A stretch of 64,000 nt of DNA from Gemmatimonadales bacterium (GTDB taxonomy: Bacteria > Gemmatimonadota > Gemmatimonadetes > Gemmatimonadales > GWC2-71-9): positions 15,315 through 79,314 of the forward strand of contig JBIOUY010000082.1 of the NCBI GenBank assembly GCA_044867445.1. Direction: 5' to 3'. Every line of letters starts with the position of its first letter. Within the stretch, counting starts at the first letter, position 1. The position numbers and the translations under genes are program-made. This document shows positions 42,767-60,084 of the stretch, one piece after another. The notes beneath the pieces were generated by a model that was not told the DNA's origin, ran no database searches, and saw only the letters and a program-made list of their open reading frames with translations.

Positions 42767-42771
42767 TCGTC

Positions 42772-43749: not shown

Positions 43750-43767
43750 GAGGGGGTAGCAAGCCCG

Positions 43768-44613: not shown

Positions 44614-44624
44614 ACGGATAGCGA

Positions 44625-45326: not shown

Positions 45327-46444
45327 CAGCGGTCCTCGAACTGCGGAACGCCGTCGTCCCCTACCATGGCCGCACCGCACTCGATGTGCCTGATCTCGCC
45401 GTCATGCGGGGAGAGCGGCTGGCGATCATGGGCCCCAACGGCTCGGGCAAATCCACCCTCCTTCGGGTCCTGGCCCTGCTCGAGCAGCCGGCGGCCGGGA
45501 GCCTTCGGATAGCGGGCCAGACGCCATCGGGCCGCACCCGGCTCGCGCTTCGACGGCGGATGGCAAGCGTGTTGCAGGCGCCGCTCCTCTGCGATACCAC
45601 TGTCCGGAAAAACGTGGAGCTGGGACTCCGCTTCCGGGGTTTTCCCCGGAGGGAGCGGCAGCAACGAGTTCAGACCTGGCTGGAGCGGCTTGGCATCTCC
45701 GGAGTGGCCGAGCGTTCAGCCCGAACCCTCTCGGGCGGCGAAGCCCAGCGCACCAGCCTCGCCCGAGCCTTCGTGATCGAGCCCGAGGTGCTGTTTCTCG
45801 ACGAGGCATTCGCGGCGCTCGACCCCCCGACTCGGGAGGGGTTGCTGCTCGACATCCAACGCATTCTGCGGGACTCGGGAACGACCACCGTATTCGTCAC
45901 CCACGAGCGCAGCGAGGCGCTTACCATGGGGGATCGGCTGGCCATCATGATGGAAGGCCGTGTGGTGCAGCTCGATCGCCCGGCCCGAGTCTTTCGAGCA
46001 CCGATAAGCGAGGCGGTCGCTCGGCTGGTCGGCATCGAAAATCTTCTGCCTGGTCGGGTTCGGTCGGGTATCGGAGGCGTCTGCGAGGTCGAGGTTGCCG
46101 GACGGAGCTTGTGGGTGAGCGGAGTTGGTCGGGTGGGAGATGGCGGGGTGGTGTGTTTCCGCGGGGAGGATCTGCTGCTGAGCCGGGCGGGGCGGCCCCG
46201 CCCCATGGTAGAAGAAGCCAATCTGCTCATCGGAGTCGTTCGCCGAATTGCCCCATCCGGTGGAGGTCTCCGAGTGTTTGTCGACGCCGGTGTTGAGCTT
46301 CAGGCTGTGCTCACTCCTGCGGCCTTCGAAAGCCTGGGGCTCCGCGAAGGAATGAGTCTGGAGCTGAGCCTGCGCAGGGCATCTTCTCACTTCATTGTCA
46401 CCGGCCGAGCCGAAGAAGGGCACGCTGCGTCCGGCGCTGCCTGA
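45323..46444 (+). CDS. tupC: ABC transporter ATP-binding protein with C-terminal TOBE-like domain (TupC-like)
   Basis: Walker A GPNGSGKST, signature LSGGEAQR, Walker B LFLDEAF. The C-terminal extension of about 130 aa is typical of oxyanion importers. ATGA overlap with the permease. Confidence 0.75.
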   Translation: MTAVLELRNAVVPYHGRTALDVPDLAVMRGERLAIMGPNGSGKSTLLRVLALLEQPAAGSLRIAGQTPSGRTRLALRRRMASVLQAPLLCDTTVRKNVELGLRFRGFPRRERQQRVQTWLERLGISGVAERSARTLSGGEAQRTSLARAFVIEPEVLFLDEAFAALDPPTREGLLLDIQRILRDSGTTTVFVTHERSEALTMGDRLAIMMEGRVVQLDRPARVFRAPISEAVARLVGIENLLPGRVRSGIGGVCEVEVAGRSLWVSGVGRVGDGGVVCFRGEDLLLSRAGRPRPMVEEANLLIGVVRRIAPSGGGLRVFVDAGVELQAVLTPAAFESLGLREGMSLELSLRRASSHFIVTGRAEEGHAASGAA

Positions 46445-46506: not shown

Positions 46507-48135
46507 ATGAGCGGTACCTTCAACATTCCACAGCCCCGCAATGAGCCGGTGCTGAGCTACGCCCCGGGATCACCGGAACGCTCGGCCCTCAAGTCGGCCT
46601 TGGTGCAGGTGGGCGCAGAGCAGCCCGATATTCCGGCGGTGGTGGCCGGCCGCGAGATCCGGAGCGGGATAACCCATGACGTGGTGTCCCCTCACTGCCA
46701 CCAGCGGGTCCTTGCCCGGGTGCACCACGCTGATCGGGCTACGATCGGTGCAGCGATCAAAGCCGCAGTCGAAGCCCAGCGCGAATGGGGCCACTGGCGT
46801 TTCGAAGATCGGGCCGCCGTATTCCTCAGGGCGGCGGACCTCCTGGCCACTACCCACCGGCAGTTGCTCAACTCGGCCACCATGCTAGGCCAGAGCAAGA
46901 CCGCGTTCCAGGCGGAGATCGACAGCGCGTGTGAGCTGATCGATTTCCTGCGCTTCAACGTCCATTTCGCGGAGCGGATCTACCACGAGCAGCCCAATTC
47001 CGCACCCGGGATGTGGAACCGGCTCGACCATCGCCCGCTCGAAGGGTTCATCTACGCGATCACGCCGTTCAACTTCACCGCGATTGGCGGTAATCTCCCT
47101 ACCGCGCCGGCGCTGATGGGCAATGCCGTGGTGTGGAAGCCGGCCGCCACCGCGTTGTTGAGCAATTGGCACTTCTTCAAGCTGCTGGAGCAGGCCGGGT
47201 TGCCGCCGGGAGTGATCAACTTCCTTCCCGGGGATTCCATCGAGATCAGCCAGGCGCTCATCGCCGACCGCCACTTGGCCGGGATTCACTTTACCGGCTC
47301 CACCGAGGTATTTCAGAGTATCTGGAAGGCGGTGGCCGGGAACCTGGAGCACTACGCCGCCTATCCTCGCCTGGTGGGCGAGACCGGCGGGAAGGACTTC
47401 ATCCTGGCCCATCCGAGTGCCGACGTCGACGCGCTCGCGGTGGCGATGGTGCGAGGAGCATACGAGTACCAGGGCCAGAAGTGCAGCGCGGCTTCGCGAG
47501 CCTACATCCCGGATAACCTCTGGCCCAAGGTGCGGGAGCGCGCTGTCGCCATGATCCAGGATATCCGGATGGGCGATGTCGCCGACTTCCGCAACTTCAT
47601 GGGCGCTGTCATCGATCGCCGGGCCTTCGACCGGATTCGCAGCGACCTCGAACGGGCCAAGCGCGATTCCGGCGTTCAGGTCGTCGCCGGAGGCGGAACC
47701 GACGACTCGGTGGGCTATTTCGTCCAGCCGACACTACTTAAGGTAGACGATCCCCAGTACCGGCTCATGTGCGAGGAGCTCTTTGGACCGGTGCTCACGG
47801 TTCACGTCTATCCCGCGCAGCGCTGGTCCGAGACCCTGGGTGTGGTCGATCGGACCAGTCCCTACGCTCTCACCGGCGCGGTCTTCTCCCAAGACCGCGC
47901 GGCCCTCGTCGAGGCGGACCGGGCCCTGCGCTATTCGGCGGGCAACTATTACGTGAACGACAAACCCACCGGCGCCGTTGTGGGACAACAGCCGTTCGGA
48001 GGCGCCCGCGCGAGTGGGACCAACGACAAGGCAGGCTCCATTCTGAACCTGTTGCGTTGGGTGTCGCCTCGCAGTGTCAAGGAAACCTTTGCCCCGCCGA
48101 CGGACTATCGATACCCCTTCATGGCAGAAGCCTGA
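46507..48135 (+). CDS. pruA: L-glutamate gamma-semialdehyde (1-pyrroline-5-carboxylate) dehydrogenase
   Basis: 542-aa ALDH family protein with the N-terminus FNIPQPRNEPVLSYAPGSPER. It also has GETGGKDF and YEYQGQKCSAASR (catalytic Cys). Confidence 0.9.
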   Translation: MSGTFNIPQPRNEPVLSYAPGSPERSALKSALVQVGAEQPDIPAVVAGREIRSGITHDVVSPHCHQRVLARVHHADRATIGAAIKAAVEAQREWGHWRFEDRAAVFLRAADLLATTHRQLLNSATMLGQSKTAFQAEIDSACELIDFLRFNVHFAERIYHEQPNSAPGMWNRLDHRPLEGFIYAITPFNFTAIGGNLPTAPALMGNAVVWKPAATALLSNWHFFKLLEQAGLPPGVINFLPGDSIEISQALIADRHLAGIHFTGSTEVFQSIWKAVAGNLEHYAAYPRLVGETGGKDFILAHPSADVDALAVAMVRGAYEYQGQKCSAASRAYIPDNLWPKVRERAVAMIQDIRMGDVADFRNFMGAVIDRRAFDRIRSDLERAKRDSGVQVVAGGGTDDSVGYFVQPTLLKVDDPQYRLMCEELFGPVLTVHVYPAQRWSETLGVVDRTSPYALTGAVFSQDRAALVEADRALRYSAGNYYVNDKPTGAVVGQQPFGGARASGTNDKAGSILNLLRWVSPRSVKETFAPPTDYRYPFMAEA

Positions 48136-48952
48136 CCCCTGGCATCATAGAGGCGAGCGTCGCGGCCTGAGCGCCGCGATTCTCGTCCTCCTCGGTGGAC
48201 TGCTGGCCCCGGTGCAGCTTCGCTATCGGGCGACGCAGCTGGAATGCGCCCGGTTTCACGAGGTGATCGCGGGCAAGGTACAGACCCAGACCGCCGGCCG
48301 ACGGCGGGTTGAGACGCTGGGACGCGACGGCATCTGGACGCTTCGTGCCACCGAGGGCGGAGAGGAGATCGCGTTGGAAGGTTGGTATGACTCGCTCAGC
48401 GTTTGGCGGGCGGCGTCGGATGGCAAGTTGACCGGCGATACGGATGGTCTGATCGGCGGTCGATATCGGGCACGCCTGACCCCGACCGGCGCGATCACCA
48501 TCGCATCCCGGCCGTTCATCCCCGACGAGCTGCGCGAGGTGGCGGATCTCTCGGGTGCTCTGGAAGACCTTCTTCCCGAGCTACCGCCACGCGGGCTTGA
48601 GGCCGGCGAGACCTGGAGTGATAGCGCCGGCCTCGAAATTCGCAGACTGCCCGACAGTGCGGCGGCGGGAGGACCGATCGTGCGGCTGCAGGTGCACGAC
48701 CGGCGTGTGGCCGTGAAGGCTCCTCTGGAGGGCGACACCGCATCCGTTGAGCTGCGCCAGACGACCGAGGAAAGTGGCCAGATCGACTGGGCACCCGCGG
48801 TCGGCCTATTGCGCCGGCAGAGAGAGATCGTGGTCGAGACCGCTATTCCGCCGCGCGGTCCGATACGCCAGCCGGTACGCTCCCGGCTGGAGCAGCACAT
48901 CAGCATTACGCGCCTGTCGCCGGCGGCTGCCCCTCGAGCCCGCTGCCAGTAG
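48074..48952 (+). CDS. Hypothetical protein with N-terminal hydrophobic anchor (start uncertain)
   Basis: The ORF begins with a GTG inside the pruA 3' end. LSAAILVLLGGLLAPV looks like a signal anchor. No family recognised. The 3' end overlaps the convergent ABC-2 permease ORF. Confidence 0.4.
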   Translation: MSRKPLPRRRTIDTPSWQKPDPWHHRGERRGLSAAILVLLGGLLAPVQLRYRATQLECARFHEVIAGKVQTQTAGRRRVETLGRDGIWTLRATEGGEEIALEGWYDSLSVWRAASDGKLTGDTDGLIGGRYRARLTPTGAITIASRPFIPDELREVADLSGALEDLLPELPPRGLEAGETWSDSAGLEIRRLPDSAAAGGPIVRLQVHDRRVAVKAPLEGDTASVELRQTTEESGQIDWAPAVGLLRRQREIVVETAIPPRGPIRQPVRSRLEQHISITRLSPAAAPRARCQ

Positions 48953-49715
48953 GTCCTCTTCCGACAAACCGTTGCTCCGGGTCGAAGAGCAACGCGGTGG
49001 CCAGGAATGCAATCCCGCAGGCCGCGAGAAGCGCTCCCGCATCCTCCCAGATCCCGAATTCTCCCTGCTGCCCCATAGCGTGGCGCATGAGATCCACCGC
49101 ATAGGTTACCGGATTCACCCTTGCGACTGCACGCAAGAGCGGCGGCAGGCCGGCGGTGGGATAGAGCGCTCCGCTCAGGAAGAGCAGCGGAAACAGGACG
49201 ACGTTGATGACGCCAGCGAAGTTCTCTACCGAGCGGAGCCGCGCAGCGACCAAGAGCCCCAGAAGACCGCTGGCAGCAGCCGCGAGAACCAGCGCTACGA
49301 TCGCCTGGAGCATCTGGAGGGCGGTCACCCTCAGGATGAGCGGGGCAAATGCCAGCACGACGCCGCCTTGGAAAAACCCGACCAGGGTGGCGGCCAACGC
49401 TCTGCCGCTGAGCACCGCCGGGACCCCGGCTGGGCTCGCGAGCATGAGTCGCAGCATGCCGAACTCACGGTCGTAGACTGTGGAGATTGCGGTAAGCATT
49501 CCACCGAACAGGGCAGCCATCACGACCATTCCAGGAAAGACGAACTCCTGGTAGGAGAGCCCGCCCTCCAGCCGCGCGATCGCGTTGTATCCAGTGCCGA
49601 CAAGAAGCAGCCATAGGAATGGTCGGGCCAATCCGCCTAGCAGCCGACTGGTCTGCCGAGTGGTCCGCGCCAGGTCGCGGGCAACGATGCCGTGGACCGC
49701 GCTCAGGGCGCCCAT
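48906..49715 (-). CDS. ABC-2 type transporter permease (NodJ/DrrB-like)
   Basis: 269 aa with six TM segments. Typical ABC-2 pattern (...YDREFGMLRLMLASP...NPVTYAVDLMR). The start overlaps the ATPase stop by 13 nt. Confidence 0.8.
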   Translation of the reverse strand: MGALSAVHGIVARDLARTTRQTSRLLGGLARPFLWLLLVGTGYNAIARLEGGLSYQEFVFPGMVVMAALFGGMLTAISTVYDREFGMLRLMLASPAGVPAVLSGRALAATLVGFFQGGVVLAFAPLILRVTALQMLQAIVALVLAAAASGLLGLLVAARLRSVENFAGVINVVLFPLLFLSGALYPTAGLPPLLRAVARVNPVTYAVDLMRHAMGQQGEFGIWEDAGALLAACGIAFLATALLFDPEQRFVGRGPTGSGLEGQPPATGA

Positions 49716-50638
49716 TGGGTACCGTCCTGAGTTCGAGCGAAATAGGCGTCTTCGAGGGTGGCAGGGCGCAGGCTCAAACGGTTTACCCCGGGTGCGGCGC
49801 CGGCCAACTCCACGATTGGCTCACGCTCACCGGTCAGGCCCACCCGGAATCCGCGCTCGGTCTGCAGAATCGTCTTGACGGCGCCCAGTCCGCGCAGCGC
49901 TCGAACCAGGCGCTGTGCTCCCGGGCCTTCGATCTCTGCGACTTCCTCGCCAAATGCCGACCGCAGCAGGTCCGGCGAGTCGTCGCCCACCACACAGCCT
50001 CGGGCCAGGAGAATGACCCGATCCGCCGGCTCGGCCTCGGTGAGATAGTGAGTCGAGAACAGGATCGTAGTGCCGGCCGCGCGACGCGCCTCTGTGAGAA
50101 TGGACCAGATGCGCTCCCGATGCTCCGGGTCGAGCCCGACAGTGGGCTCATCCAGAATCAGGAGATCCGGTTGATGCAGTGTTGCCCGGGCGATATCCAC
50201 CAACCGGCGCCACCCGCCCGAGAGCTGCCGAGCCGGTTGATGAGTCCGCTCGGCCAGGCCAAGACGCTGAATGGCGTCACCCACCGCGGCCCGAGCGAGC
50301 CTGCCGCCCAAACCGGCGAGCCGCGCTGCAAAGAGGAGATTCTCCTCTACCGTGAGAAGCCCGTCTACGGTGGTTTCCTGGAATACCAGGCCCAACCGGC
50401 GACGGACGGCCGTCCGCTCGCGGGTAACATCGTGGCCGAAGATTCTTGCTGTGCCGCGGGTGGGAGAGAGCAGCGTAGCCAGAAGGAGCATTGTGGTGGT
50501 CTTGCCCGCCCCATTGGGACCGAGCAGTCCCATGACAGCGCCGGCGGGAAGGACCAGGGTCAGTGCGTCGAGCGCCCGGAGGCCGCCGTAGTCGCGCCCC
50601 AGTCCTTCGGCCGCGATTGCCGGCGGAGGCTCGCTCAC
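49703..50638 (-). CDS. ABC transporter ATP-binding protein (DrrA/NodI-like exporter ATPase)
   Basis: Walker A GPNGAGKTT, signature LSGGWRR, Walker B LLILDEPT. I chose the GTG at 50638 because it forms a GTGA overlap with the pqqE stop. The 362-aa track ORF extends into pqqE. Confidence 0.85.
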   Translation of the reverse strand: MSEPPPAIAAEGLGRDYGGLRALDALTLVLPAGAVMGLLGPNGAGKTTTMLLLATLLSPTRGTARIFGHDVTRERTAVRRRLGLVFQETTVDGLLTVEENLLFAARLAGLGGRLARAAVGDAIQRLGLAERTHQPARQLSGGWRRLVDIARATLHQPDLLILDEPTVGLDPEHRERIWSILTEARRAAGTTILFSTHYLTEAEPADRVILLARGCVVGDDSPDLLRSAFGEEVAEIEGPGAQRLVRALRGLGAVKTILQTERGFRVGLTGEREPIVELAGAAPGVNRLSLRPATLEDAYFARTQDGTQWAP

Positions 50639-51720
50639 ACCCGTTGGGGCTCGAGCACGCGGTAACGGTACTCCGGGAGATTCTCGCGCTCGGCGATGGC
50701 GCTGTCGATCATCCCCCGGTTGGGCGACAAGATGCAGACCGGGTCGGTGTTGGCTGCATCGCCGGTGAGCGCAAACGCCTGACAGCGACAACCACCAAAG
50801 TCGATCGCCTTTCGGGGACAGGTCCGGCAGGGCTCCTTCATCCAGCTATCGCCCCGGAACGCCTGGAACGCCGGCGACTCCTGCCAGATCCACTGGAGCG
50901 AGCGATCGCGAACGTTGTCAAACGAGAGGGTAGTAATCTGGGTGGCTCCGTGACAGGGGAGCACTCGGCCATCGGGGGAGACAACCAGATAGTTCTTGCC
51001 CCAGCCGCCGTAGCACGGCTTGGGATACTGCTCGAAGTAGTCGGGGAGCACGAAGATGATCTGCATCTTACCACGATACCGCTGCATGGCCTCATTGGCG
51101 ACGGCATGGGCCCGCTGTACCTGCTCCCGGGTGGGCATGAGCCACGCGCGGTTCTCCAGGCCCCAGCCGTAGTACTGAGTATTGGCCAACTCGAGCCGGT
51201 CGGCGCCGAGGCTCCCCGCCAGGTCGATGATCTCCTCGATGCGATCGAGGTTGGTGCGATGCAGCACGACGTTGATGGAGAAGGCGAAGCCCAGCTCCTT
51301 GGCGATAGCGGCCGCGGCGCGCTTCTGCTTAACCGAGCTCACTCCGGCGATGCGTTCTGCTACTTCGGAGTCGGCATCCTGGATGGAGATCTGGATGTGC
51401 TCCATGCCGATCTCACGCAAGCGCTCAGCGCGAGTCCGAGTCAGGCCCAGACCCGACGTGACCAGAGTGGTATAGAGCCCCAGGCCATGAGCGTGGGCAG
51501 CGAGCTCCTCGAGATCCTTGCGGACTAGCGGCTCCCCGCCTGAGAGGCCCAGCTGAAGCACGCCCAGCTCGCGTGCCTGAGTGAACACCCGCTTCCAGTC
51601 CCCAGTGGCGAGCTCGCCTTCGGCCCGTACCATCTCCAACGGGTTGGAGCAGTAGGGGCAGTGCAGCGGGCATCGGTGAGTGATCTCCGCCAGCAAGGTC
51701 GTCGGGTGCTCAGACGTCAC
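50635..51720 (-). CDS. pqqE: PQQ biosynthesis radical SAM protein PqqE
   Basis: CPLHCPYCSN radical SAM cluster, the SPASM-type Cys-rich C-terminus (CRTCPRKAIDFGGCRCQA), and overall PqqE-like sequence. Confidence 0.9.
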   Translation of the reverse strand: MTSEHPTTLLAEITHRCPLHCPYCSNPLEMVRAEGELATGDWKRVFTQARELGVLQLGLSGGEPLVRKDLEELAAHAHGLGLYTTLVTSGLGLTRTRAERLREIGMEHIQISIQDADSEVAERIAGVSSVKQKRAAAAIAKELGFAFSINVVLHRTNLDRIEEIIDLAGSLGADRLELANTQYYGWGLENRAWLMPTREQVQRAHAVANEAMQRYRGKMQIIFVLPDYFEQYPKPCYGGWGKNYLVVSPDGRVLPCHGATQITTLSFDNVRDRSLQWIWQESPAFQAFRGDSWMKEPCRTCPRKAIDFGGCRCQAFALTGDAANTDPVCILSPNRGMIDSAIAERENLPEYRYRVLEPQRV

Positions 51721-51979
51721 GAATCAACTCCTTCTCCGCCAGGTCGGCCAAATACTGGGCCACGTCGGCGGCCACATCGGTCTGGTATCGCTCTCCCAGG
51801 ATTGCGGCGATCTCGCCCACGGTGCGTTGGCCGTCCACCAACTCCAGGATGGCCGCGCCGGTATCGTTGAGGAGCACCGCTCCCTCGGGATAGAGCAACA
51901 CCGGGCGCTGCCGAACCGAGTCGAAGCCCAGACGCGCCAGACGCCAAAGCGTGGGTTTCGCGTTCGGGTCGAGCGTCAC
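51710..51979 (-). CDS. pqqD: PQQ biosynthesis peptide chaperone PqqD
   Basis: VLLYPEGAVLLNDTGAAILELVDGQRTVGEI...YLADLAEKELI. The GTG at 51979 forms a GTGA overlap with the pqqC stop. The 3' end overlaps the pqqE start by 11 nt. Confidence 0.8.
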   Translation of the reverse strand: MTLDPNAKPTLWRLARLGFDSVRQRPVLLYPEGAVLLNDTGAAILELVDGQRTVGEIAAILGERYQTDVAADVAQYLADLAEKELIRDV

Positions 51980-52734
51980 TGGTACGCGTGGTGAATCGTA
52001 TCGATCATCGCCCATAACATATCCAGCTTGAAGGCGAGCGCCTCGAACGCCCGCATCTGAGTCTCCACTGTCGTGCAGTGCTGCTGCACGATTGCCAGCC
52101 CCTGGCGCACATCCCGTGGTGCCTGCACCAACCGGCTCCGGAAGTAGTCCAGTCCTTCCGGTGGAATCCAGGGGTAGTGCTTGGGAAATGCCTCGATCCG
52201 CTGCTGGTGGATCTTGGGAGCGAAGAGCTCCGTCAGTGACGAGGCAACCGCCTCCACCCAGGGCCTGGTCTTACAGAAGGTGACGTAGGATTCGCAGATG
52301 AACCGCACTGCCGGCAGCACGTGGCGCTCATCCTCCATTTCCTCTCGCGGCACGCCCAGAGCGACGCCGAGGCGAATCCACAGCTCGATTCCGCCAGTGC
52401 CGGGCGCGGTACCGTCATGGTCCACGATCCGCTGGATCCATTCCCGCCGGACCTCGGGATCGGGACAGTTGGAGAGAATGGCGGCGTCCTTCCGGGGAAC
52501 GACCCGTTGGTACGCCAGCCGATTGGCCACCCATCCCTGAAACTGACGCTGGCTCAGCCGCCCCTCGTACATCAGCCGATGAAACGGATGCTCCACGTAG
52601 TACGACCCGCTGAACGAGCGAAGCGCCTCTTCCAACCCCGTCGCCGTGAGCGGGCGCTCCAACCGGGGAAACGGCGGTTTCGGCGGCGTGGCCAACTGCG
52701 AGGGAGCGAGCGTTGCGGTCATAGCGTCAACCAT
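51976..52734 (-). CDS. pqqC: Pyrroloquinoline-quinone synthase PqqC
   Basis: YYVEHPFHRLMYEGRLSQRQFQGWVANRLAYQ...DHDG...ELWIRLG...FRSRL is a typical PqqC. Confidence 0.9.
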   Translation of the reverse strand: MVDAMTATLAPSQLATPPKPPFPRLERPLTATGLEEALRSFSGSYYVEHPFHRLMYEGRLSQRQFQGWVANRLAYQRVVPRKDAAILSNCPDPEVRREWIQRIVDHDGTAPGTGGIELWIRLGVALGVPREEMEDERHVLPAVRFICESYVTFCKTRPWVEAVASSLTELFAPKIHQQRIEAFPKHYPWIPPEGLDYFRSRLVQAPRDVRQGLAIVQQHCTTVETQMRAFEALAFKLDMLWAMIDTIHHAYQ

Positions 52735-52767
52735 AAAGGACTGGAGTCCAGGACGCAGCAGTCGGCG

Positions 52768-53676
52768 TCACAGGGTGAACCGCGTGCCATCGGCGCCCAC
52801 CTTCATCCCGAGGCGCTCGACAGTGGCGCGCTCCGGCGAGTCCTCGATGAGGATAGGGTTGGTGTTGTTGATGTGGGTATAGACCCGGTCTCGGGCGGGG
52901 AGGCTGGCCAGGCGCTCCAGGCTTCCATCCGGCCCCGAAATGGGCAGATGATCCATCTGCCGAGCGGTTCTCTCCCCAATGCCCAGCGCAATGAGCTCGT
53001 CATCGCTCCAGAACGTACCATCGAACAGCACCAAATCGGCTTCTTCCAAGCGCGTGACCACGTCCCCTTCCAGGGCACCGCAACCGGGAATGAAAGCACA
53101 GACCCCATCGGTGGTCCGGTCTCGGATGCTGAGCCCAATCGTGTGGCCCGGCAGCTCCTCGCTCACGAATCGTGGCGGACCGGCCGGCACTGCAAACGCA
53201 GAGAGCTCCAGCCCACTGTCGCCACCGTCCCGATAGCAGAGGGTCAGGGTCCCCGGGAGCGGCAACTCGGTCACCTTCACTTCGGCGAATGCCTGAGTGA
53301 CCGGCAGGATCCTCGAGTCCTGTTCCAGGGCTTTCCGGACGGCATGAGTGGCACATAGCTGCAAATGCCGGCCCTCCCGCAGCAGCACGATCCCCAACGT
53401 GTGGTCCAGCTCAGCATCGGTCACGGCGATCCCCTCGATGGGCACGTGGCGCATTCCCTCAGGCGCTCGCGCCGAGAGCCAAGACAACTGCCGATGCACA
53501 TCCGGGGAAGCGTTGAGGAGGAACCACCGCTCGCCGTCGACGCTGATCGCGGCTGAGGACTGGGTCCTCGGGATGGCTCGGCGGGGGTCTGCGCGCGCGA
53601 TCCGGCAGGACGGGCACCAGCAGTTCCACTGGGGGAACCCGCCTCCTGCCGCTGTACCTAAGAGAACTACCTGCAC
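52768..53676 (-). CDS. pqqB: PQQ biosynthesis protein PqqB (metallo-beta-lactamase fold)
   Basis: VVLLGTAAGGGFPQWNCWCPSC...TQSSAAISVDGERWFLLNASPD...THINNTNP. GTG start. Confidence 0.9.
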   Translation of the reverse strand: MQVVLLGTAAGGGFPQWNCWCPSCRIARADPRRAIPRTQSSAAISVDGERWFLLNASPDVHRQLSWLSARAPEGMRHVPIEGIAVTDAELDHTLGIVLLREGRHLQLCATHAVRKALEQDSRILPVTQAFAEVKVTELPLPGTLTLCYRDGGDSGLELSAFAVPAGPPRFVSEELPGHTIGLSIRDRTTDGVCAFIPGCGALEGDVVTRLEEADLVLFDGTFWSDDELIALGIGERTARQMDHLPISGPDGSLERLASLPARDRVYTHINNTNPILIEDSPERATVERLGMKVGADGTRFTL

Positions 53677-53687
53677 CCTAAAACACT

Positions 53688-53713
53688 GAGGGGCCCGCTT
53701 TCGCGAGCCCCTC
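53688..53713 (-). terminator. Hairpin between pqqA and pqqB (attenuator or partial terminator)
   Basis: The minus strand reads GAGGGGC-t-CGC-GAAA-GCG-g-GCCCCTC followed by AGTGTTTTAGG and then the pqqB GTG. That is a 7+3 bp stem with a GAAA tetraloop and a short U tract. Confidence 0.5.
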
Positions 53714-53740
53714 GAGTTAGTTGCTCGTCCTTAAAGCGTC

Positions 53741-53815
53741 GCGACGTAGGCGGTCACTTCCATGGTGACGGCCACGACCTCGGCCTCGGGCTTCGTCCAC
53801 TTCATAAGTCTAGCC
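53741..53815 (-). CDS. pqqA: PQQ precursor peptide PqqA (24 aa; absent from the ORF track)
   Basis: The minus strand reads ATG AAG TGG ACG AAG CCC GAG GCC GAG GTC GTG GCC GTC ACC ATG GAA GTG ACC GCC TAC GTC GCG ACG CTT TAA. This translates to MKWTKPEAEVVAVTMEVTAYVATL. It carries the conserved W-x-K-P and the E-x-x-x-Y cross-link pair. GGGAGG lies 9 nt upstream. Confidence 0.85.
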
Positions 53816-53859: not shown

Positions 53860-53875
53860 TGGGTGAGATCACCCA
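53860..53875. promoter_or_regulatory. 16-bp palindrome TGGGTGA-GA-TCACCCA (site C), in the pqqA 5' UTR
   Basis: Perfect inverted half-sites read directly. It lies between the predicted sigma-54 promoter and the pqqA start codon. Confidence 0.6.
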
Positions 53876-53911
53876 GCCGGATCGCTGTAAGACCCGACAA
53901 CGCCCTCCATC

Positions 53912-53928
53912 ATGCAGGGGCCGTGCCG
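53912..53928 (-). promoter_or_regulatory. Sigma-54 (-24/-12) promoter candidate for pqqA
   Basis: The minus strand reads TTCGGCACGGCCCCTGCAT, i.e. GGCACG-N4-CTGCA, against the consensus TGGCACG-N4-TTGCW. The GG (53927/53926) and GC (53915/53914) have correct GG-N10-GC spacing. It lies about 100 nt upstream of the pqqA ATG. Confidence 0.6.
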
Positions 53929-53968
53929 AACATGAGACAATCCAGTATCATCATCATAAGTAATTGCC

Positions 53969-53981
53969 AATCAATAAGTTC
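53969..53981 (+). promoter_or_regulatory. AT-rich IHF-like site between the UAS and the -24/-12 promoter
   Basis: AATCAATAAGTTC against the IHF core WATCAA-N4-TTR shows one mismatch. It is embedded in the most AT-rich stretch of the window (about 53940..53995). Confidence 0.3.
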
Positions 53982-54017
53982 GAAGATACTCGCGGGAATG
54001 GCCTGGTCTTCGTGGGA

Positions 54018-54051
54018 TGGGTGATCTCACCCAAGTGGGTCATATCACCCA
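54018..54051. promoter_or_regulatory. Two adjacent copies of the same 16-bp palindrome (sites A and B), candidate enhancer (UAS)
   Basis: Site A is TGGGTGATCTCACCCA (54018..54033). Site B is TGGGTCATATCACCCA (54036..54051), with one half-site mismatch. Their centres lie roughly 100 and 115 bp upstream of the -24 GG. Confidence 0.6.
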
Positions 54052-54058
54052 GCGAAGC

Positions 54059-55477
54059 TCACGCCTGGATGCCGTACTTCTTCAGCCGATAGCGAAGCGT
54101 GTCACGCGAGATCCCGAGCCGCTGGGCCGCCCGGGTCTGGTTGCCCTCCGACTCCTGCAGCGCCCGCTCGATCATGATGCGTTCCCATTGCTCGAGATCG
54201 GTGCCGGGAGGAGGGAAAGGGGTACCGGTGGGTGCCTTGGGGTAACCCGCGGCGCCGTCACGGGCGGATGGGGCTGCTTCCAAGGCGGCCGAAGCTTGGG
54301 GGATGTCGAGCGCGAGGTGCTCCAGGTCGAGGCTTGGCCCTCTGCTCCAGAGCACCGCTCGTTCAATGACGTGGCTCAACTCGCGCACGTTGCCGGGCCA
54401 GGGATACGCTAACAGTGATTGGCGGGCCTGCGCATCGATCCGGCGGACGTCGCGGCCGTATTTGGAGCTGAATCGGGCCAGAAACAGCTCGGCGAGCTTG
54501 AGCACGTCCTCCCCCCGCTCCCGCAATGGAGGGAGCCGAAGGAGAATGACGGCGAGCCTGAAATAGAGATCCCGGCGAAACCGCTCCCGCTGAGCCGCGC
54601 GCTCGAGGTCTCGATTGGTAGCAGCCAGAATCCGCACGTCGATCCGCCGATCGCGAAGACCGCCCACTCGCCGGGTAGTGCGGTCCTCCACCGCCTTCAG
54701 GAGCTTGCCCTGGAGCGAAAGCTCCAGGTCACCTACCTCATCCAGGAATAGGAACCCGCCCTCCGCCGCCTCGAACAGTCCGAGCTTGGATTCCTTGGCA
54801 TCGGTGAAGGCCCCCCGCTCGTAACCGAAGAGTTCGGCCTCCATGAGGGTGGCCGGGAGGGCAGTACAGTTCACCTCGATAAACGGCTTGCTGGCCCGAT
54901 GGCTCGCGGCGTGAATGCTTCGCGCGACTAATCCCTTGCCGGTCCCGGTCTCGCCGGTGATCAGCACCGGGGGCGTCTCCGGCAGGGCCGCGATCTGCCG
55001 AATCTGCTCCAGGACGGCGCGCATCGGGGGTGACTCCCCGATGATACCCGTGATCGGAGCGCCACCCGCGGCCCGCTGACGGTAATAAGAGAGCTCCTGT
55101 TTGAGCTGCGAGGTCTCGCGGGCGCGGTCGGCGAGCAGTCGCAGCTCTTCCAGATCAACCGGCTTCTTCAGGTAATCGAACGCGCCCAGCTTCACCGCCT
55201 CGACCGCACCCTCGATGGTTCCGAACGCGGTCATGACGATCACCGGAATGCTGGGATCAATCTCCCGGATCCGTCGCAGCAGGTCGATGCCGGTGAGGGT
55301 GCCGGGGAGCCGGACATCGGTAAACACCACGTCGGGACTGATCCGGCCCAGGAGCTCGAGCGCTTGATCGACGTCGGTGGCCACCTCGGTCTCGTAGCCA
55401 TACTCCGCCAGGAAGGCCTTCATCGCCCGCGCGAGAGTCCGTTCGTCCTCGACCAGCAAGATGGTAGCGCCGCTCAT
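54059..55477 (-). CDS. NtrC-family sigma-54-dependent response regulator (REC-AAA+-HTH)
   Basis: The receiver shows ILLVEDE...FTDVRLPG. The AAA+ domain shows GETGTGKG, GAFTDA, FLFLDEVG. The C-terminal Fis-type HTH is NQTRAAQRLGISRDTLRYRLKKYG. The ATG at 55477 overlaps the kinase stop (ATGA). Confidence 0.9.
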   Translation of the reverse strand: MSGATILLVEDERTLARAMKAFLAEYGYETEVATDVDQALELLGRISPDVVFTDVRLPGTLTGIDLLRRIREIDPSIPVIVMTAFGTIEGAVEAVKLGAFDYLKKPVDLEELRLLADRARETSQLKQELSYYRQRAAGGAPITGIIGESPPMRAVLEQIRQIAALPETPPVLITGETGTGKGLVARSIHAASHRASKPFIEVNCTALPATLMEAELFGYERGAFTDAKESKLGLFEAAEGGFLFLDEVGDLELSLQGKLLKAVEDRTTRRVGGLRDRRIDVRILAATNRDLERAAQRERFRRDLYFRLAVILLRLPPLRERGEDVLKLAELFLARFSSKYGRDVRRIDAQARQSLLAYPWPGNVRELSHVIERAVLWSRGPSLDLEHLALDIPQASAALEAAPSARDGAAGYPKAPTGTPFPPPGTDLEQWERIMIERALQESEGNQTRAAQRLGISRDTLRYRLKKYGIQA

Positions 55478-56955
55478 AGCGCCGCTCCGGCGGCCGGGAG
55501 CCGGACCCTGACGGTGGTGCCCTCGGCTACCCGGCTCTCGATTTCCAGTCGTCCGCCGTTTTGCTCGATGTAGCGCTTGGCGATGGCCAGCCCCAGTCCA
55601 GTGCCCTCTGCCCGGGTGGTGAAGAAGGGCTCGCACACCGAGGCGATCGCCTGCGCCGGAATCCCCCCGCCGGTGTCGTTGACAGCGACGGTCACTTCCC
55701 CGGGTCCGGAGGCGCCGTTCTCAGCATGCGCCTCTATCGAGAGCTTGCCGCCTTGGGACATGGCATCCAGGGCATTCGACACTACTTCCACCAGCGCCTG
55801 CTCCAATTGCACGGGGTCTACTCGCACCGGGGGAAGATCCGGGGGAACGCTGACCCGAAGCTCCACGCCCCGCTCCCGAATCGGCGCCGCGAATGTCGGG
55901 AGCATCTCGTCGATCAGGTGCGCCACACTCTCCGGCATGGGATGAAATGGTGCCGGCCGGCTGAAGCTGAGAAGGTGATTGATGCGCCGATCGAGCCGGT
56001 CGACCTCCCCGACGATGGCGTCGAGGTGCTCCCGGGCAGAGGGAGATTCCGGATGCCGCCGGACCAGCTGGGCCGCGGCTCGCAGGCTGGCGAGTGGGTT
56101 GCGCAGACCGTGGGCCACGGCTGCCGACATCTCCCCGATCGAGGCCAGCTTCTCGGACTGGACCAGCTGGGCTTGAGTCCGCTCGAGCTGCGCGATATTC
56201 GCTTTCAGATTCTCGGTCATCCGGCCAAAGGCGCGCGCCAGATCACCGATCTCGTCCTGAGAGGTCGCCTTCACCGGATGGTCCAGGTCGCCGGAACCCA
56301 CCACCGCCATCGCCTGGGTGAGCTCCTGAATCGGGCGGGCGAGGCCCCGCGCGATGAGCCCGGAGACCAGGAGTCCCGCCGCCAACGCAATGAGCATGAT
56401 GCCCAGGAGCACGCGGCCTTCCGAGCTCAGAATTTCCTCCAGTCGGGCGTAGGCCCCTTTCACGCTCGACTCCCGGGCGCGGCGATAGATCTCGCGATTC
56501 ATCTGAGTGAGGAGTGGGAGCAGGCGGGCTTTCAACTCGCGCTGAGCCATACGATAGGCGACTTCGCGTTGCCCGGCGTCATACAAGGCGAACACACTGT
56601 CCGAGACCGATACGATCTGCTGCTGAATCCGCGCGACGCCGTTAGCCAACTCCATTTCGTCGGGGCGGAGCTCCGCCCGCCAACGCTGCTGCCAGTAGTC
56701 CACCACCTCGCCGGTCAGACGAAATTCTTTCCGGGCATCGGGGTCCAGGCCGCTCAGGTAGCGCCAGATCACCTCGCTCTGATTGAACATGGCGGTCTCG
56801 AGCTCCGCATAGGTGCGGGTTCGGGCCATGCTCTCACCCAACGCCTGCAGCGCCCGGTGCTCGAGCGCGTTGCTGCGGATGGCCTCGGCGCCGACCAGCA
56901 GCGCCGGGAGGGCCATCAAGGAGAAGCCGAGCAGGAGCTTGCGCTGGAAGGTCAC
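55474..56955 (-). CDS. Sensor histidine kinase (2 TM, HAMP, HisKA, HATPase_c)
   Basis: H-box EMSAAVAHGLRNPLASL, N-box VVSNALDAM, G-boxes NDTGGGIP and GTGLGLAIAK. The GTG at 56955 forms a GTGA overlap with the upstream EBP stop. Confidence 0.85.
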   Translation of the reverse strand: MTFQRKLLLGFSLMALPALLVGAEAIRSNALEHRALQALGESMARTRTYAELETAMFNQSEVIWRYLSGLDPDARKEFRLTGEVVDYWQQRWRAELRPDEMELANGVARIQQQIVSVSDSVFALYDAGQREVAYRMAQRELKARLLPLLTQMNREIYRRARESSVKGAYARLEEILSSEGRVLLGIMLIALAAGLLVSGLIARGLARPIQELTQAMAVVGSGDLDHPVKATSQDEIGDLARAFGRMTENLKANIAQLERTQAQLVQSEKLASIGEMSAAVAHGLRNPLASLRAAAQLVRRHPESPSAREHLDAIVGEVDRLDRRINHLLSFSRPAPFHPMPESVAHLIDEMLPTFAAPIRERGVELRVSVPPDLPPVRVDPVQLEQALVEVVSNALDAMSQGGKLSIEAHAENGASGPGEVTVAVNDTGGGIPAQAIASVCEPFFTTRAEGTGLGLAIAKRYIEQNGGRLEIESRVAEGTTVRVRLPAAGAAL

Positions 56956-58292
56956 GAAAGGTCCGGGCCGGCACTTCCCAGCCCGGCTTCGCGCCACCAC
57001 CGGTAGAACGTCGCCCGGCCGATGCCGAGCGCGCGGGCCGCGGCAGTGCGATTGCCTCCATGGGAAGACAGCGCGCGAAGCAGAGCGGTTCGCCGGTCCT
57101 CTTTTGCCGGTGCGTAGGCTGGGTGGGAGATCGTGGCTCCTTGCAGGAGGGTCTCGACCGCGAGGTGGCTCAGCTCGATGGTGGGAATCATATCAGGCGA
57201 ACTGGAGGAGACCCTTGCCGAGGCCTGGCGAAGCACAACCTCCAGTTGCCGTACATTGCCGGGCCAGTCACTGGCCTGAAGCGCGGCCAAGGCCTGGTCG
57301 GTCAGCGTGGTGCCCGGAGGGGCGTACCGGGAGAGGAAGTGGTCGGCCAGGAGCGGAATGTCCCCGCGGCGGTCGCGCAGAGCCGGAATCGCGATCCGGA
57401 CCACCCGGAGCCGGCGGTACAGGTCCTGGCGGAACCGGCCCTGGGCCACCTCCTGCTCCAGCGGCGAGGCGGAGGCGGCGATGACGCGAACATCAACCAT
57501 TCGGGATCGGGGATCGCCCCGGCGTTCGATTTCCCCGCCTTGGAGCAGATGCAGCAATCTGGCCTGAACCGCCAAGGGGATCCGGTTGACCGCCTCGAGA
57601 AAGAGGGTGCCGGAATGAGCCAGCTCGACGCGTCCGATCCGGGTACCGGACGTTGATGTGGTACCCCGCACCTCGCCGAAGAGCTCGGCTTCAAGGGCGG
57701 TCGGCGGTACAGCAGCGCAGTCTACCGCAATGAGTGGCCGCTCGGCGCGCTGACTCCGGGCATGAAGCAGCTGCGCCACGACCTCTTTGCCGACGCCAGA
57801 CTCGCCCTCGATAACAACCGGAGCATCACTCGGCGCGACCGCGTCGATGAGCTCGTACATCGCCTCCATGGCGGGATCCGAGCCCACCAGGCTGCCGTAG
57901 CCGGGTCGTCCGCCGGGGCCGGTCCCCTGCCGGCAGAGTACTCCGGCGTCACGAATGACCACCAGCACGCCAACTGCTCCCACCGCGTCGGTCCAAGGGC
58001 GCGCGCTCACCTCGGCGGTACGGAGGTTCCCCTGAGCACAGAGCACGTCGGCGAGGGCGCGGATGGGTCGGCCGGTCGAGCGGACGTCCCAGAGCAGATC
58101 GGCCACGGCGGGCTCGAGCCGGAGGACCTCCCGCCAGGGGAGCGAACGCCCTTCGGCTGGGGCCAGCCCGGTCACCCGGCTGGCTGCGGGATTATGGAGG
58201 AGCACTCGGCCCGAGGCGTCGATCCCGATCGCCCCGTCGTCAGTAGAGGCGAGCCAGGCCTCGAACATGCCGGCGTCGACCGTGTCGGTCAT
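56952..58292 (-). CDS. PAS-domain enhancer-binding-protein homologue with degenerate GAFTGA and Walker B
   Basis: N-terminal PAS domain (IGIDASGRVLLHNPAASRVTG). The AAA+ domain has an intact Walker A (GESGVGKE). GTTSTS stands where GAFTGA is expected, and LFLEAV where LFLDEI is expected. C-terminal HTH: NRTAAARALGIGRATFYRW. The Met at 58292 is preferred. Confidence 0.8.
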   Translation of the reverse strand: MTDTVDAGMFEAWLASTDDGAIGIDASGRVLLHNPAASRVTGLAPAEGRSLPWREVLRLEPAVADLLWDVRSTGRPIRALADVLCAQGNLRTAEVSARPWTDAVGAVGVLVVIRDAGVLCRQGTGPGGRPGYGSLVGSDPAMEAMYELIDAVAPSDAPVVIEGESGVGKEVVAQLLHARSQRAERPLIAVDCAAVPPTALEAELFGEVRGTTSTSGTRIGRVELAHSGTLFLEAVNRIPLAVQARLLHLLQGGEIERRGDPRSRMVDVRVIAASASPLEQEVAQGRFRQDLYRRLRVVRIAIPALRDRRGDIPLLADHFLSRYAPPGTTLTDQALAALQASDWPGNVRQLEVVLRQASARVSSSSPDMIPTIELSHLAVETLLQGATISHPAYAPAKEDRRTALLRALSSHGGNRTAAARALGIGRATFYRWWREAGLGSAGPDLS

Positions 58293-60072: not shown

Positions 60073-60084
60073 GACGACCTCGAC

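What the first reader, a model, noticed from the sequence alone, without database searches (positions are those of the whole stretch)
48906..53815. The pqqABCDE operon continues without a break into an ABC-2 exporter pair, a candidate PQQ export system
The order on the minus strand is pqqA, pqqB, pqqC, pqqD, pqqE, ABC ATPase, ABC-2 permease. The junctions are:
- pqqC/pqqD: GTGA overlap.
- pqqD/pqqE: 11-nt overlap.
- pqqE/ATPase: GTGA overlap (50635-50638).
- ATPase/permease: 13-nt overlap.

The two transporter genes are therefore almost certainly co-translated with the biosynthetic genes. They belong to the DrrAB/NodIJ-like exporter class: Walker A GPNGAGKTT, signature LSGGWRR, and a six-TM ABC-2 permease.

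PQQ is made in the cytoplasm but used by periplasmic quinoproteins. To my knowledge the route across the inner membrane is unresolved, so a dedicated exporter encoded in the operon is an attractive hypothesis. No pqqF/G-type protease is seen in the window.
Basis: partly seen in the sequence, partly recalled or inferred. Interest (0 to 1): 0.65.

Follow-up and report, generated by a model that had tools for sequence, protein, structure and literature searches.

The report
PQQ operon with built-in ABC exporter
A Gemmatimonadales PQQ cofactor operon runs straight into a two-gene ABC export pump, and the same fusion recurs in three bacterial phyla including culturable Methylophaga, which makes the pump a strong and testable candidate for the unknown route that carries PQQ out of the cytoplasm.

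Summary
On the minus strand, pqqA-B-C-D-E runs into an ABC ATPase (50638-49703) and an ABC-2 permease (49715-48906). The stop/start overlaps are 4, 11, 4 and 13 nt, and no terminator lies inside the array.

The linkage is not unique to this genome. Among 165 homologous transporter loci from genomes and metagenomes, four permease clades carry pqqE immediately upstream in every informative case (55 of 55). Those clades are two deep Gemmatimonadota clades, one Actinomycetota-labelled clade, and Gammaproteobacteria (Methylophaga, Porticoccaceae). Their flanking genes and regulators are otherwise unrelated. None of the 69 informative loci outside these clades has pqqE adjacent.

The pair fits neither curated neighbouring family:
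- It scores below the cut-offs of both DrrAB and PedBC/LutEF, the lanthanide importer.
- It lacks the PedA1 binding protein (0 of 68 loci, against 44 of 79 PedBC loci).
- The permease model has the type V exporter fold.

Literature searches found no described PQQ exporter and no report of this linkage.

The best reading is a dedicated inner-membrane PQQ exporter, made together with the biosynthetic enzymes (about 0.6). The substrate and the direction of transport are inferred, not shown. Classical PQQ producers lack this pump, so it cannot be the universal route.

The parts
55474..57000 (-). Sensor histidine kinase (HAMP-HisKA-HATPase_c), first gene of the two-component pair upstream of pqqA. 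The start codon is uncertain.
   Evidence: Pfam match. The gene is syntenic in clade A and clade B loci.
54059..55477 (-). Sigma-54-dependent response regulator (receiver, AAA+ sigma-54 activator and Fis-type HTH domains). Its ATG overlaps the kinase stop codon as ATGA.
   Evidence: Pfam and NCBIfam matches. The overlap is read from the sequence.
54019..54050 (.). Two adjacent palindromes, GGGTGAnnTCACCC, that are candidate binding sites for the sigma-54 activator.
   Evidence: One search found only three matches in the 64-kb window, all in this intergenic region, against 0.19 expected by chance. Matches also occur upstream of pqqA in related loci.
53914..53928 (-). Sigma-54-type -24/-12 promoter element, CGGCAC-N5-CTGC.
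   Evidence: Sequence read. A YGGCAC-N5-CTGC element sits at the same distance upstream of pqqB in most clade A and clade B loci. It is a consensus match only.
53861..53874 (.). Third copy of the GGGTGAnnTCACCC palindrome, downstream of the putative promoter and upstream of pqqA.
53731..53805 (-). pqqA precursor peptide (24 aa, E-x3-Y motif).
   Evidence: TIGR02107 and PF08042 both score above their cut-offs. Near-identical peptides occur in relatives.
53688..53713 (-). Hairpin of 11 base pairs followed by a T-rich tail, directly after pqqA. It is a candidate partial terminator or stabiliser that would raise pqqA transcript levels relative to the downstream genes.
52768..53676 (-). pqqB.
   Evidence: TIGR02108 scores 352 bits against a cut-off of 245.
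51976..52734 (-). pqqC.
   Evidence: TIGR02111 scores 312 bits against a cut-off of 240.
51710..51979 (-). pqqD (GTG start, overlapping the pqqC stop codon as GTGA).
   Evidence: TIGR03859 scores 79 bits against a cut-off of 46. The overlap is read from the sequence.
50635..51720 (-). pqqE, the radical SAM/SPASM enzyme.
   Evidence: TIGR02109 scores 530 bits against a cut-off of 381.
49703..50638 (-). ABC ATPase (311 aa) with all catalytic motifs intact and a DrrA/NodI-type C-terminal domain. Its GTG start overlaps the pqqE stop codon as GTGA.
   Evidence: PF00005 match. drrA scores 231 bits and PQQ_ABC_ATP scores 216 bits, both below their cut-offs. The closest solved nucleotide-binding domains are from ABCA transporters.
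48906..49715 (-). ABC-2 permease (269 aa, about six transmembrane helices) with the type V exporter fold. Its start overlaps the ATPase stop codon by 13 nt.
   Evidence: PF01061 scores 108 bits. PedC scores 153 bits and drrB scores 150 bits, both below their cut-offs. The AF2 model has pLDDT 83. Its best Foldseek matches are ABCH, KpsM, ABCG5/8, ABCG25, Wzm and TarG.

Best explanation
The two genes encode a homodimer-of-heterodimers ABC-2 (type V) exporter that belongs to the PQQ biosynthetic operon.

**Proposed mechanism**
1. A sigma-54 promoter upstream of pqqA, controlled by the adjacent histidine kinase and NtrC-type activator, drives one transcript covering pqqA-B-C-D-E, the ATPase and the permease.
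2. A hairpin after pqqA sets the ratio of precursor peptide to enzymes.
3. Overlapping stop and start codons couple translation of the transporter to that of PqqE.
4. The transporter uses ATP to move finished PQQ from the cytoplasm, where PqqC makes it, across the inner membrane. PQQ is a planar tricarboxylate quinone that cannot diffuse through a membrane. Periplasmic or extracytoplasmic quinoprotein dehydrogenases then take it up.

**Shown computationally**
- The gene structure and the conserved coupling between genes.
- Intact ATPase motifs.
- The exporter fold of the permease.
- The absence of a binding protein.
- The strict, cross-phylum association with pqqE.

**Inferred**
- The direction of transport.
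- PQQ as the substrate.
For: **Operon structure**
- The array is unbroken, with overlaps of 4, 11, 4 and 13 nt and no terminator between pqqE and the transporter genes.
- The junction overlap is conserved: 4 nt in 40 of 44 clade A/B loci, 4-11 nt in most clade D loci, and a 3-20 nt gap in clade C.

**Linkage across lineages**
- Of 165 loci carrying homologous permeases, all 55 informative loci in clades A-D have pqqE directly upstream of the ATPase gene. None of the 69 informative loci in the other clades does.
- Clades A, B and C each have 100% bootstrap support in a concatenated ATPase+permease NJ tree.
- The taxa are Gemmatimonadales, a second Gemmatimonadota clade at 44% permease identity, an Actinomycetota-labelled MAG clade, and Methylophaga/Piscirickettsiaceae/Porticoccaceae.

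**Independent contexts**
- In Gemmatimonadota the flanks are a sigma-54 two-component system.
- In Methylophaga they are LuxR-type regulators and a methanol/ethanol-family PQQ dehydrogenase (721 bits on TIGR03075).
- In clade C they are three PQQ dehydrogenases.
- In L031 pqqB has moved, yet the pair still follows pqqE.

**Exporter architecture**
- The PF01061 permease has a type V fold matching KpsM, Wzm, TarG and ABCG/ABCH exporters.
- The nucleotide-binding domain is closest to ABCA transporters.
- A PedA1-type binding protein occurs in 0 of 68 clade A-D loci and nowhere in the 64-kb window, against 44 of 79 PedBC loci.

**An unfilled need**
- Recent papers state that PQQ is made in the cytoplasm and transported to the periplasm, but name no transporter.
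- Full-text searches for a PQQ exporter, export or efflux returned nothing relevant.

**From established knowledge**
- DrrAB exports planar quinone drugs.
- CcmAB is an ABC-2 system that serves delivery of a periplasmic cofactor (heme).
Against: - There is no experimental evidence for the substrate or for the direction of transport.
- From my own knowledge, not tested here: classical PQQ producers (Klebsiella, Pseudomonas, Acinetobacter, Gluconobacter, Methylorubrum) have no such pair in their pqq operons. E. coli carrying foreign pqq genes still makes holo-glucose dehydrogenase and releases PQQ. A dedicated exporter is therefore not universally needed, and other routes exist.
- The pair is as close to PedBC/LutEF as it is to DrrAB. 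PedBC/LutEF is assigned to lanthanide import.
- The pqq-linked clades are not resolved as one monophyletic group. The deep splits have 67-79% NJ bootstrap support.
- Only three permease positions distinguish clades A-D from both neighbouring families.
- A sister group, clade E, has the pair without pqq genes on contigs of about 9-12 kb.
- The survey started from the transporter. The fraction of all pqq operons that carry it was not measured.
Confidence: 0.6

Rival explanations
1. The pair is a PedBC/LutEF-like system that works on metals, either lanthanide or calcium supply for PQQ dehydrogenases or a lanthanide chelator. It would be co-expressed with PQQ synthesis because quinoproteins need both cofactors.
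For: - The permease's best NCBIfam hit is PedC (153 bits), and the ATPase scores 216 bits on PQQ_ABC_ATP.
- PedA1A2BC/LutAEF are needed for lanthanide-dependent growth.
- Some genuine PedBC pairs lie 0.3-7 kb from pqq genes: 9 loci scored as 'NEAR'.
- In the NJ tree clade A sits next to the PedBC clade, with 67% support.
Against: - Both scores are well below the curated cut-offs of 241 and 302. Real members score 320-453 bits.
- The PedBC clade has 100% bootstrap support and excludes all pqq-adjacent loci.
- The defining binding protein PedA1 is absent from all 68 clade A-D loci and from the window. PedA2 is present in only one of them.
- In clades A, C and D the ATPase keeps a DrrA/NodI-type C-terminal domain that PedB lacks.
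Confidence: 0.1
2. The pump exports something other than PQQ that arises from the pathway. Candidates are the leftover PqqA peptide fragments or a reactive intermediate. It could also act as self-protection, keeping redox-active PQQ low in the cytoplasm rather than supplying the periplasm.
For: - From established knowledge, ABC-2 pumps in RiPP clusters often export peptides or confer immunity.
- The pathway starts from a ribosomal peptide and releases fragments.
- The strict linkage to pqqE fits any pathway-derived substrate equally well.
Against: - Cytoplasmic peptidases normally recycle short peptides, and no peptidase domain or C39 module is attached to the transporter.
- Loci in clades C and D are surrounded by PQQ-dependent dehydrogenases that need the finished cofactor outside the cytoplasm.
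- A detoxifying PQQ efflux pump would in practice be the same thing as a PQQ exporter.
Confidence: 0.15
3. The pair is a generic DrrAB-like drug or lipid efflux pump that became fixed next to pqqE by chance or by operon hitch-hiking, with no functional tie to PQQ.
For: - The best ATPase hit is drrA (231 bits).
- The closest non-pqq relatives, clades F and G, are DrrAB-like pairs in Actinomycetota and other phyla with no pqq genes nearby.
Against: - Adjacency holds in 55 of 55 loci across four clades whose permeases share only about 35-45% identity, with different flanks, regulators and phyla.
- The translational coupling is conserved.
- The pair persists after a local rearrangement in L031.
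- This pattern is not expected without selection for co-expression.
Confidence: 0.05

Closest known systems
DrrAB daunorubicin/doxorubicin exporter family (TIGR01188/TIGR01247) and NodIJ
   Same: - Two-gene ABC-2 architecture with the ATPase gene first and the permease gene second.
- The ATPase carries a C-terminal domain; the NodI model aligns to residues 8-303.
- The permease has six transmembrane helices.
- No binding protein is encoded.
- The pair is embedded in a biosynthetic cluster whose product it would export.
- The DrrAB substrate is a planar quinone.
   Different: - Scores fall below the curated cut-offs (231 against 312, and 150 against 223).
- It forms separate clades in the tree.
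- Its context is PQQ cofactor biosynthesis, not a polyketide antibiotic cluster.
PedA1A2BC / LutAEF lanthanide ABC transporter (TIGR03861, 03863, 03864, 03866)
   Same: - It belongs to the same ABC-2 superfamily and is the nearest curated permease model.
- It is also genomically tied to PQQ-dependent dehydrogenase systems and sometimes lies near pqq genes.
   Different: - PedBC works with a periplasmic binding protein and a beta-propeller protein, and is assigned to import. Neither partner is present here.
- Scores are below the cut-offs.
- The ATPase here is longer.
- PedBC pairs are never fused directly behind pqqE: 0 of about 56 informative loci.
CcmAB (heme handling ABC-2 system of cytochrome c maturation)
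   Same: It is an ABC-2 type transporter dedicated to supplying a redox cofactor to periplasmic enzymes. Some clade D permeases carry weak precomputed CcmB (PF03379) hits.
   Different: The window's proteins have no significant similarity to CcmA or CcmB beyond the superfamily level; ccmA scores 105 bits against a cut-off of 132. There is no CcmC/D/E-type partner, and the cofactor is different.
PqqU (YncD) TonB-dependent PQQ importer
   Same: It is the only PQQ transporter characterised so far, and it is common in Gemmatimonadota.
   Different: It is an outer-membrane importer of exogenous PQQ and is unrelated in sequence, fold, membrane and direction. It does not address how PQQ leaves the cytoplasm.

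Membership tests
ABC-2 / type V ABC exporter superfamily | Permease matches the Pfam ABC2_membrane model above the gathering score. | tested here: met
   PF01061 scores 108.1 bits against 26.9, and PF12698 scores 65.6 bits against 31.6.
ABC-2 / type V ABC exporter superfamily | ATPase carries a complete set of ABC motifs. | tested here: met
   PF00005 scores 112 bits. Walker A GPNGAGKTT, Q-loop, LSGGWRR, Walker B LLILDEPT, D-loop and H-loop were all read from the translation.
ABC-2 / type V ABC exporter superfamily | Type V transmembrane fold. | tested here: met
   The AF2 model has pLDDT 83 and pTM 0.83. The top 50 Foldseek matches in the PDB are all type V transporters, including ABCH-9C, KpsM, ABCG5/8, ABCG25, Wzm, TarG, ABCG2 and NosY, with TM-scores of 0.52-0.67.
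ABC-2 / type V ABC exporter superfamily | No dedicated substrate-binding protein (the exporter configuration). | tested here: met
   No binding-protein gene is present in the operon. tblastn with PedA1 finds nothing in the window or in 68 clade A-D loci. The PBP_like_2 gene at 43768-44613 belongs to a separate plus-strand importer.
DrrAB subfamily (TIGR01188 / TIGR01247) | Score at or above the curated cut-off for both subunits. | tested here: not met
   The ATPase scores 230.8 bits against 312.45. The permease scores 149.8 bits against 223.05.
DrrAB subfamily (TIGR01188 / TIGR01247) | Placement inside the DrrAB-like clade in a phylogeny. | tested here: not met
   Clade G (DrrB-like, 206-218 bits) is separate, with 99% bootstrap support. 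The window lies in clade A, which has 100% support.
PedBC / LutEF lanthanide transporter (TIGR03864 / TIGR03861) | Score at or above the curated cut-off for both subunits. | tested here: not met
   The ATPase scores 216.2 bits against 302.25. The permease scores 153.1 bits against 241.35. True members score 320 and 408-453 bits.
PedBC / LutEF lanthanide transporter (TIGR03864 / TIGR03861) | Adjacent PedA1 binding protein (TIGR03863) and PedA2 beta-propeller protein (TIGR03866). | tested here: not met
   Both were verified in the reference locus L068. PedA1 occurs in 0 of 68 clade A-D loci, and PedA2 in 1 of 68. Neither is in the window. In PedBC loci the counts are 44 of 79 and 53 of 79.
PedBC / LutEF lanthanide transporter (TIGR03864 / TIGR03861) | Role in lanthanide-dependent growth. 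| not testable with these tools
   This requires genetics or physiology.
PQQ biosynthesis operon (pqqABCDE) | All five core genes match their equivalog models above cut-off, in the canonical order. | tested here: met
   TIGR02107, 02108, 02111, 03859 and 02109 all score above their cut-offs. The gene order is A-B-C-D-E.
PQQ biosynthesis operon (pqqABCDE) | Accessory PqqF/G-type M16 peptidase. | tested here: not met
   tblastn with an M16 peptidase from L002 found no hit in the window. Some relatives do have an M16 gene a few kb upstream. This gene is accessory, so its absence does not exclude membership.
Dedicated PQQ exporter (proposed, no curated family) | Transports PQQ out of the cytoplasm. 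| not testable with these tools
   The only support is genomic association and architecture.

The most novel reading that the evidence does not exclude
These pumps are an old, previously unrecognised family of dedicated cofactor exporters that form the missing inner-membrane step of PQQ biogenesis. The PedBC/LutEF lanthanide importers of proteobacterial quinoprotein clusters descend from this family, having acquired a binding protein and reversed direction. The basis for this reading is the tree: the pqq-fused clades form the backbone between the DrrAB-like exporters and the PedBC clade.
Probability: 0.2. Interest if true: 0.85.

Novelty: new variant of a known kind. Interest (0 to 1): 0.72.

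Why it matters
PQQ is made in the cytoplasm but used outside it. As far as the searched literature shows, the transporter that takes it across the cytoplasmic membrane has never been identified. PqqB was once proposed for this role and has since been reassigned to biosynthesis.

A conserved, translationally coupled ABC exporter inside pqq operons of three phyla, including culturable methylotrophs (Methylophaga), turns that gap into a direct knockout-and-rescue experiment.

If confirmed, it would:
- complete the PQQ pathway in these lineages;
- offer a handle for improving industrial PQQ secretion;
- explain how soil Gemmatimonadota and Actinomycetota supply their many quinoproteins;
- clarify the origin of the lanthanide transporter family.

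Tried and rejected
**Searches and scans that failed or came back empty**
- The genome scan with a 21-sequence permease alignment failed because it had no conserved stretch. It was repeated successfully with five sequences.
- Five full-text searches for a known PQQ exporter or for this linkage found none.
- The 2012 survey of pqq operons (Shen et al.) is not held in the library, so I could not check whether it mentions transporters.
- The last protein search, on clade C, returned no organism names. The Actinomycetota assignment therefore rests on one MAG title.

**Analyses that were weak or inconclusive**
- Membership in DrrAB and in PedBC was tested and rejected on curated scores, partner genes and tree position.
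- I looked for residues shared by all pqq-linked clades and absent from both neighbouring families. Only L74, H212 and E247 in the permease and G37 in the ATPase qualified, which is too few to argue for a common binding site.
- Monophyly of the pqq-linked clades was not supported. ABCD was never recovered as a group, and the deep nodes have 67-79% support. I therefore make no claim of a single origin.

**Ideas considered and dropped**
- That the nearby TetR-OEP-MFP-MFS genes form a trans-envelope partner of the pump. They are not conserved across relatives.
- That the sigma-54 kinase/regulator pair is specifically tied to the pump because clade E also has one. The 31-46% identity is what unrelated NtrC-family pairs show.

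Full report
**1. The observation**

The window is 63-69% G+C. Homologue names and MAG titles place it in Gemmatimonadales. On the minus strand the ORF list and the sequence show seven genes in a row:
- pqqA, 53805-53731
- pqqB, 53676-52768
- pqqC, 52734-51976
- pqqD, 51979-51710
- pqqE, 51720-50635
- an ABC ATPase, 50638-49703
- an ABC-2 permease, 49715-48906

All five Pqq proteins pass the curated NCBIfam equivalog cut-offs. The two transporter proteins match PF00005 and PF01061.

- GTGA at pqqC/pqqD
- 11 nt at pqqD/pqqE
- GTGA at pqqE/ATPase (50638-50635)
- 13 nt at ATPase/permease

The one caveat is that pqqD could instead start at an upstream ATG. The ATPase has a full motif set: GPNGAGKTT, Q-loop, LSGGWRR, LLILDEPT, D-loop and H-loop. 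The only terminator-like hairpin in the pqqA-pqqB intergenic region lies right after pqqA (53713-53688), and no site lies between pqqE and the transporter genes.

**2. Regulation and surroundings**

Upstream on the same strand lie a histidine kinase and a sigma-54-dependent response regulator. Three features mark the 250-nt gap before pqqA:
- A -24/-12 element, CGGCAC-N5-CTGC, at 53928-53914.
- Three copies of the palindrome GGGTGAnnTCACCC. These are the only three in 64 kb, against 0.19 expected.
- The same promoter element at the same distance in most loci of both Gemmatimonadota clades.

Downstream, a convergent membrane-anchored hypothetical gene (48074-48952) overlaps the permease 3' end, so the operon ends with the permease. 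tblastn found no M16 peptidase and no methanol-dehydrogenase-type quinoprotein in the window. Pfam scans of the large ORFs found none either.

**3. Is the linkage conserved?**

The permease has more than 1,100 close homologues, and the top 120 are all 71-91% identical. The contexts I read have the same operon. That group also shares flanking synteny, so I looked further out.

I ran two scans:
- A genome scan with a permease alignment, which gave 80 species-level loci.
- A metagenome scan seeded with the most distant pqq-linked permease, which gave another 80.

I then ran tblastn with the window's proteins and built trees from the results. The loci fall into well-supported clades.

| Clade | Identity | Loci | pqqE directly upstream | Too short to tell | No pqqE adjacent |
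|---|---|---|---|---|---|
| A | Window's Gemmatimonadales group | 23 | 22 | 1 | 0 |
| B | Second Gemmatimonadota group, 44% permease identity | 26 | 22 | 4 | 0 |
| C | Group containing an Actinomycetota-labelled MAG | 7 | 4 | 3 | 0 |
| D | Gammaproteobacteria | 8 | 7 | 1 | 0 |
| E-H | All other clades | 101 | 0 | 23 | 69, plus 9 with pqq genes elsewhere in the flank |

Source names identify clade D as Methylophaga, Piscirickettsiaceae and Porticoccaceae.

The flanks differ completely between clades:
- Clades A and B have sigma-54 two-component genes.
- Methylophaga has a methanol/ethanol-family PQQ dehydrogenase and LuxR-type regulators.
- Clade C has three PQQ dehydrogenases and a cupredoxin.

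In L031 pqqB has moved upstream of the regulators, but the pump still follows pqqE. The pqqE/ATPase junction overlaps by 4 nt in 40 of 44 clade A/B loci and by 4-11 nt in most clade D loci. In clade C there is a gap of 3-20 nt.

**4. What kind of transporter is it?**

On NCBIfam the pair falls between two curated families and passes neither:

| Subunit | Model | Score (bits) | Cut-off (bits) |
|---|---|---|---|
| ATPase | drrA | 231 | 312 |
| ATPase | PQQ_ABC_ATP (PedB) | 216 | 302 |
| Permease | PedC | 153 | 241 |
| Permease | drrB | 150 | 223 |

The pqq-linked permeases of clades B, C and D behave the same way. By contrast, the proteobacterial hits at 34-40% identity are genuine PedC/PedB members, scoring 320-453 bits. 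The actinobacterial hits without pqq are DrrB-like.

In a concatenated NJ tree with 100 bootstraps, support was as follows:
- PedBC clade: 100%.
- DrrAB-like clade: 99%.
- The pqq-linked clades lie between these two without resolved monophyly; the deep splits have 67-79% support.

The permease model (pLDDT 83) matches only type V transporters: ABCH-9C, KpsM, ABCG5/8, ABCG25, Wzm, TarG, ABCG2 and NosY. The nucleotide-binding domain is closest to ABCA transporters.

The PedBC family works with the binding protein PedA1 and the propeller protein PedA2, which I verified in a Bradyrhizobium locus. Published work assigns it to lanthanide uptake. Their distribution across the loci is shown below.

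| Partner | PedBC loci | Clade A-D loci | Window (64 kb) |
|---|---|---|---|
| PedA1 | 44 of 79 | 0 of 68 | none |
| PedA2 | 53 of 79 | 1 of 68 | none |

The ATPase in clades A, C and D also keeps a DrrA/NodI-type C-terminal domain (about 308-311 aa). PedB is about 240-250 aa. The architecture is therefore that of an exporter.

**5. Most likely function**

A transporter that is welded to the last biosynthetic gene, conserved across phyla, built as an exporter, and surrounded in several lineages by enzymes that need the product outside the cytoplasm is most simply the exporter of that product.

PQQ is a tri-anionic planar quinone that needs a carrier. Recent papers still say only that it is 'transported to the periplasm'. 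No paper in the searchable library names an exporter. I put this reading at about 0.6.

The rivals are:
- A PedBC-like metal function, about 0.1. The absence of the defining partners and the sub-threshold scores count against it.
- Export of pathway by-products, or self-protection, about 0.15. This is hard to separate from PQQ efflux.
- A hitch-hiking drug pump, about 0.05. The conservation pattern contradicts it.

**6. Limits**

- Nothing here shows the substrate or the direction of transport.
- From general knowledge, the classical proteobacterial pqq operons lack this pair, and E. coli carrying foreign pqq genes still delivers PQQ to its periplasm. This cannot be the universal route, and non-specific routes exist.
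- The survey started from the transporter, so the share of pqq operons that carry it is unknown.
- The Actinomycetota assignment of clade C rests on one MAG label.
- The trees are distance-based.

**7. Novelty and verdict**

The components are ordinary: a pqq operon and an ABC-2 pump. What appears to be undescribed is a distinct, uncurated ABC-2 subfamily fused behind pqqE in Gemmatimonadota, an Actinomycetota-labelled lineage and Methylophaga. It bears directly on an open question and is testable in cultured methylotrophs. I rate it a new variant of a known kind, with interest 0.72.

Noticed in passing
window 53861-54050 and 53914-53928: The pqqA upstream region holds a sigma-54 -24/-12 element and three GGGTGAnnTCACCC palindromes. 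These are the only three in the window. One of them lies downstream of the predicted promoter. The promoter element is conserved in both Gemmatimonadota clades but absent from clades C and D, which lack the sigma-54 regulator.
   Followed up: partly
window 58483-63184 (minus strand); L001 1-2787; L165 11001-12317: TetR, an outer-membrane efflux protein, a membrane-fusion protein and an MFS pump lie co-directionally upstream of the kinase/regulator/pqq array. In L001 the OEP and MFP genes are present without the MFS gene. In Methylophaga an OEP gene lies three genes after the permease. A link to the ABC-2 pump is possible but was not supported, because the arrangement is not conserved (for example in L002).
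   Followed up: partly
window 48074-48952 (+): A convergent 292-aa ORF with one N-terminal hydrophobic segment overlaps the permease 3' end by 47 nt. It has no Pfam or NCBIfam match. It is conserved at 37-55% identity next to the operon in clade A loci.
   Followed up: partly
L023, L026, L027, L031 and other clade B loci: The clade B ATPases are only about 252 aa. The middle of the DrrA-type C-terminal domain is deleted, but the terminal (S/T)LE(D/E)-x-(Y/F)-x-ARTG motif (TLEDAYFARTQ in the window, SLEEVFLARTG in clade B) is kept. This converges on the short PedB-like length.
   Followed up: no
L029 3610-5329; L105; L110: A small gammaproteobacterial sister group to clade D (D+E has 100% bootstrap support) carries the same ATPase/permease pair without pqq genes on 9-12 kb contigs. 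It sits next to a divergently transcribed sigma-54 kinase/regulator pair.
   Followed up: partly
L031 3031-3945: In this Gemmatimonadales MAG pqqB sits upstream of the kinase and regulator genes rather than after pqqA. pqqC-D-E, the ATPase and the permease stay together.
   Followed up: no
L119, L129, L132 (upstream of pqqB): Clade D loci carry two pqqA-like ORFs ending in FEVTMYICNR. This is the proteobacterial PqqA type and differs from the Gemmatimonadota peptide (EVTAYVATL) and the clade C peptide (EVTCYRYHR).
   Followed up: no
L021: A MAG labelled Acidobacteriota carries an operon that falls inside the Gemmatimonadales clade A (69% permease identity, 75% PqqE identity). This could be mis-binning or a recent transfer.
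   Followed up: no
window 42745-46444 (+): A phosphate-type porin is followed by a complete ABC importer: a PBP_like_2 binding protein, a permease with no Pfam hit, and an ATPase. It is unrelated to the pqq operon and is followed by an aldehyde dehydrogenase gene.
   Followed up: no
L002 1-1433 and L003 1-1481: Some clade A relatives have a large double M16 peptidase (PqqF/G-like fold family) and a TPR protein just upstream of the kinase gene. The window has none.
   Followed up: partly
L057 9219-14100; L043; L056: In a few proteobacteria a genuine PedBC pair lies directly upstream of pqqBCDE, which is the opposite order to the window. In L057 no PedA1 gene was seen among the two ORFs checked upstream.
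   Followed up: partly
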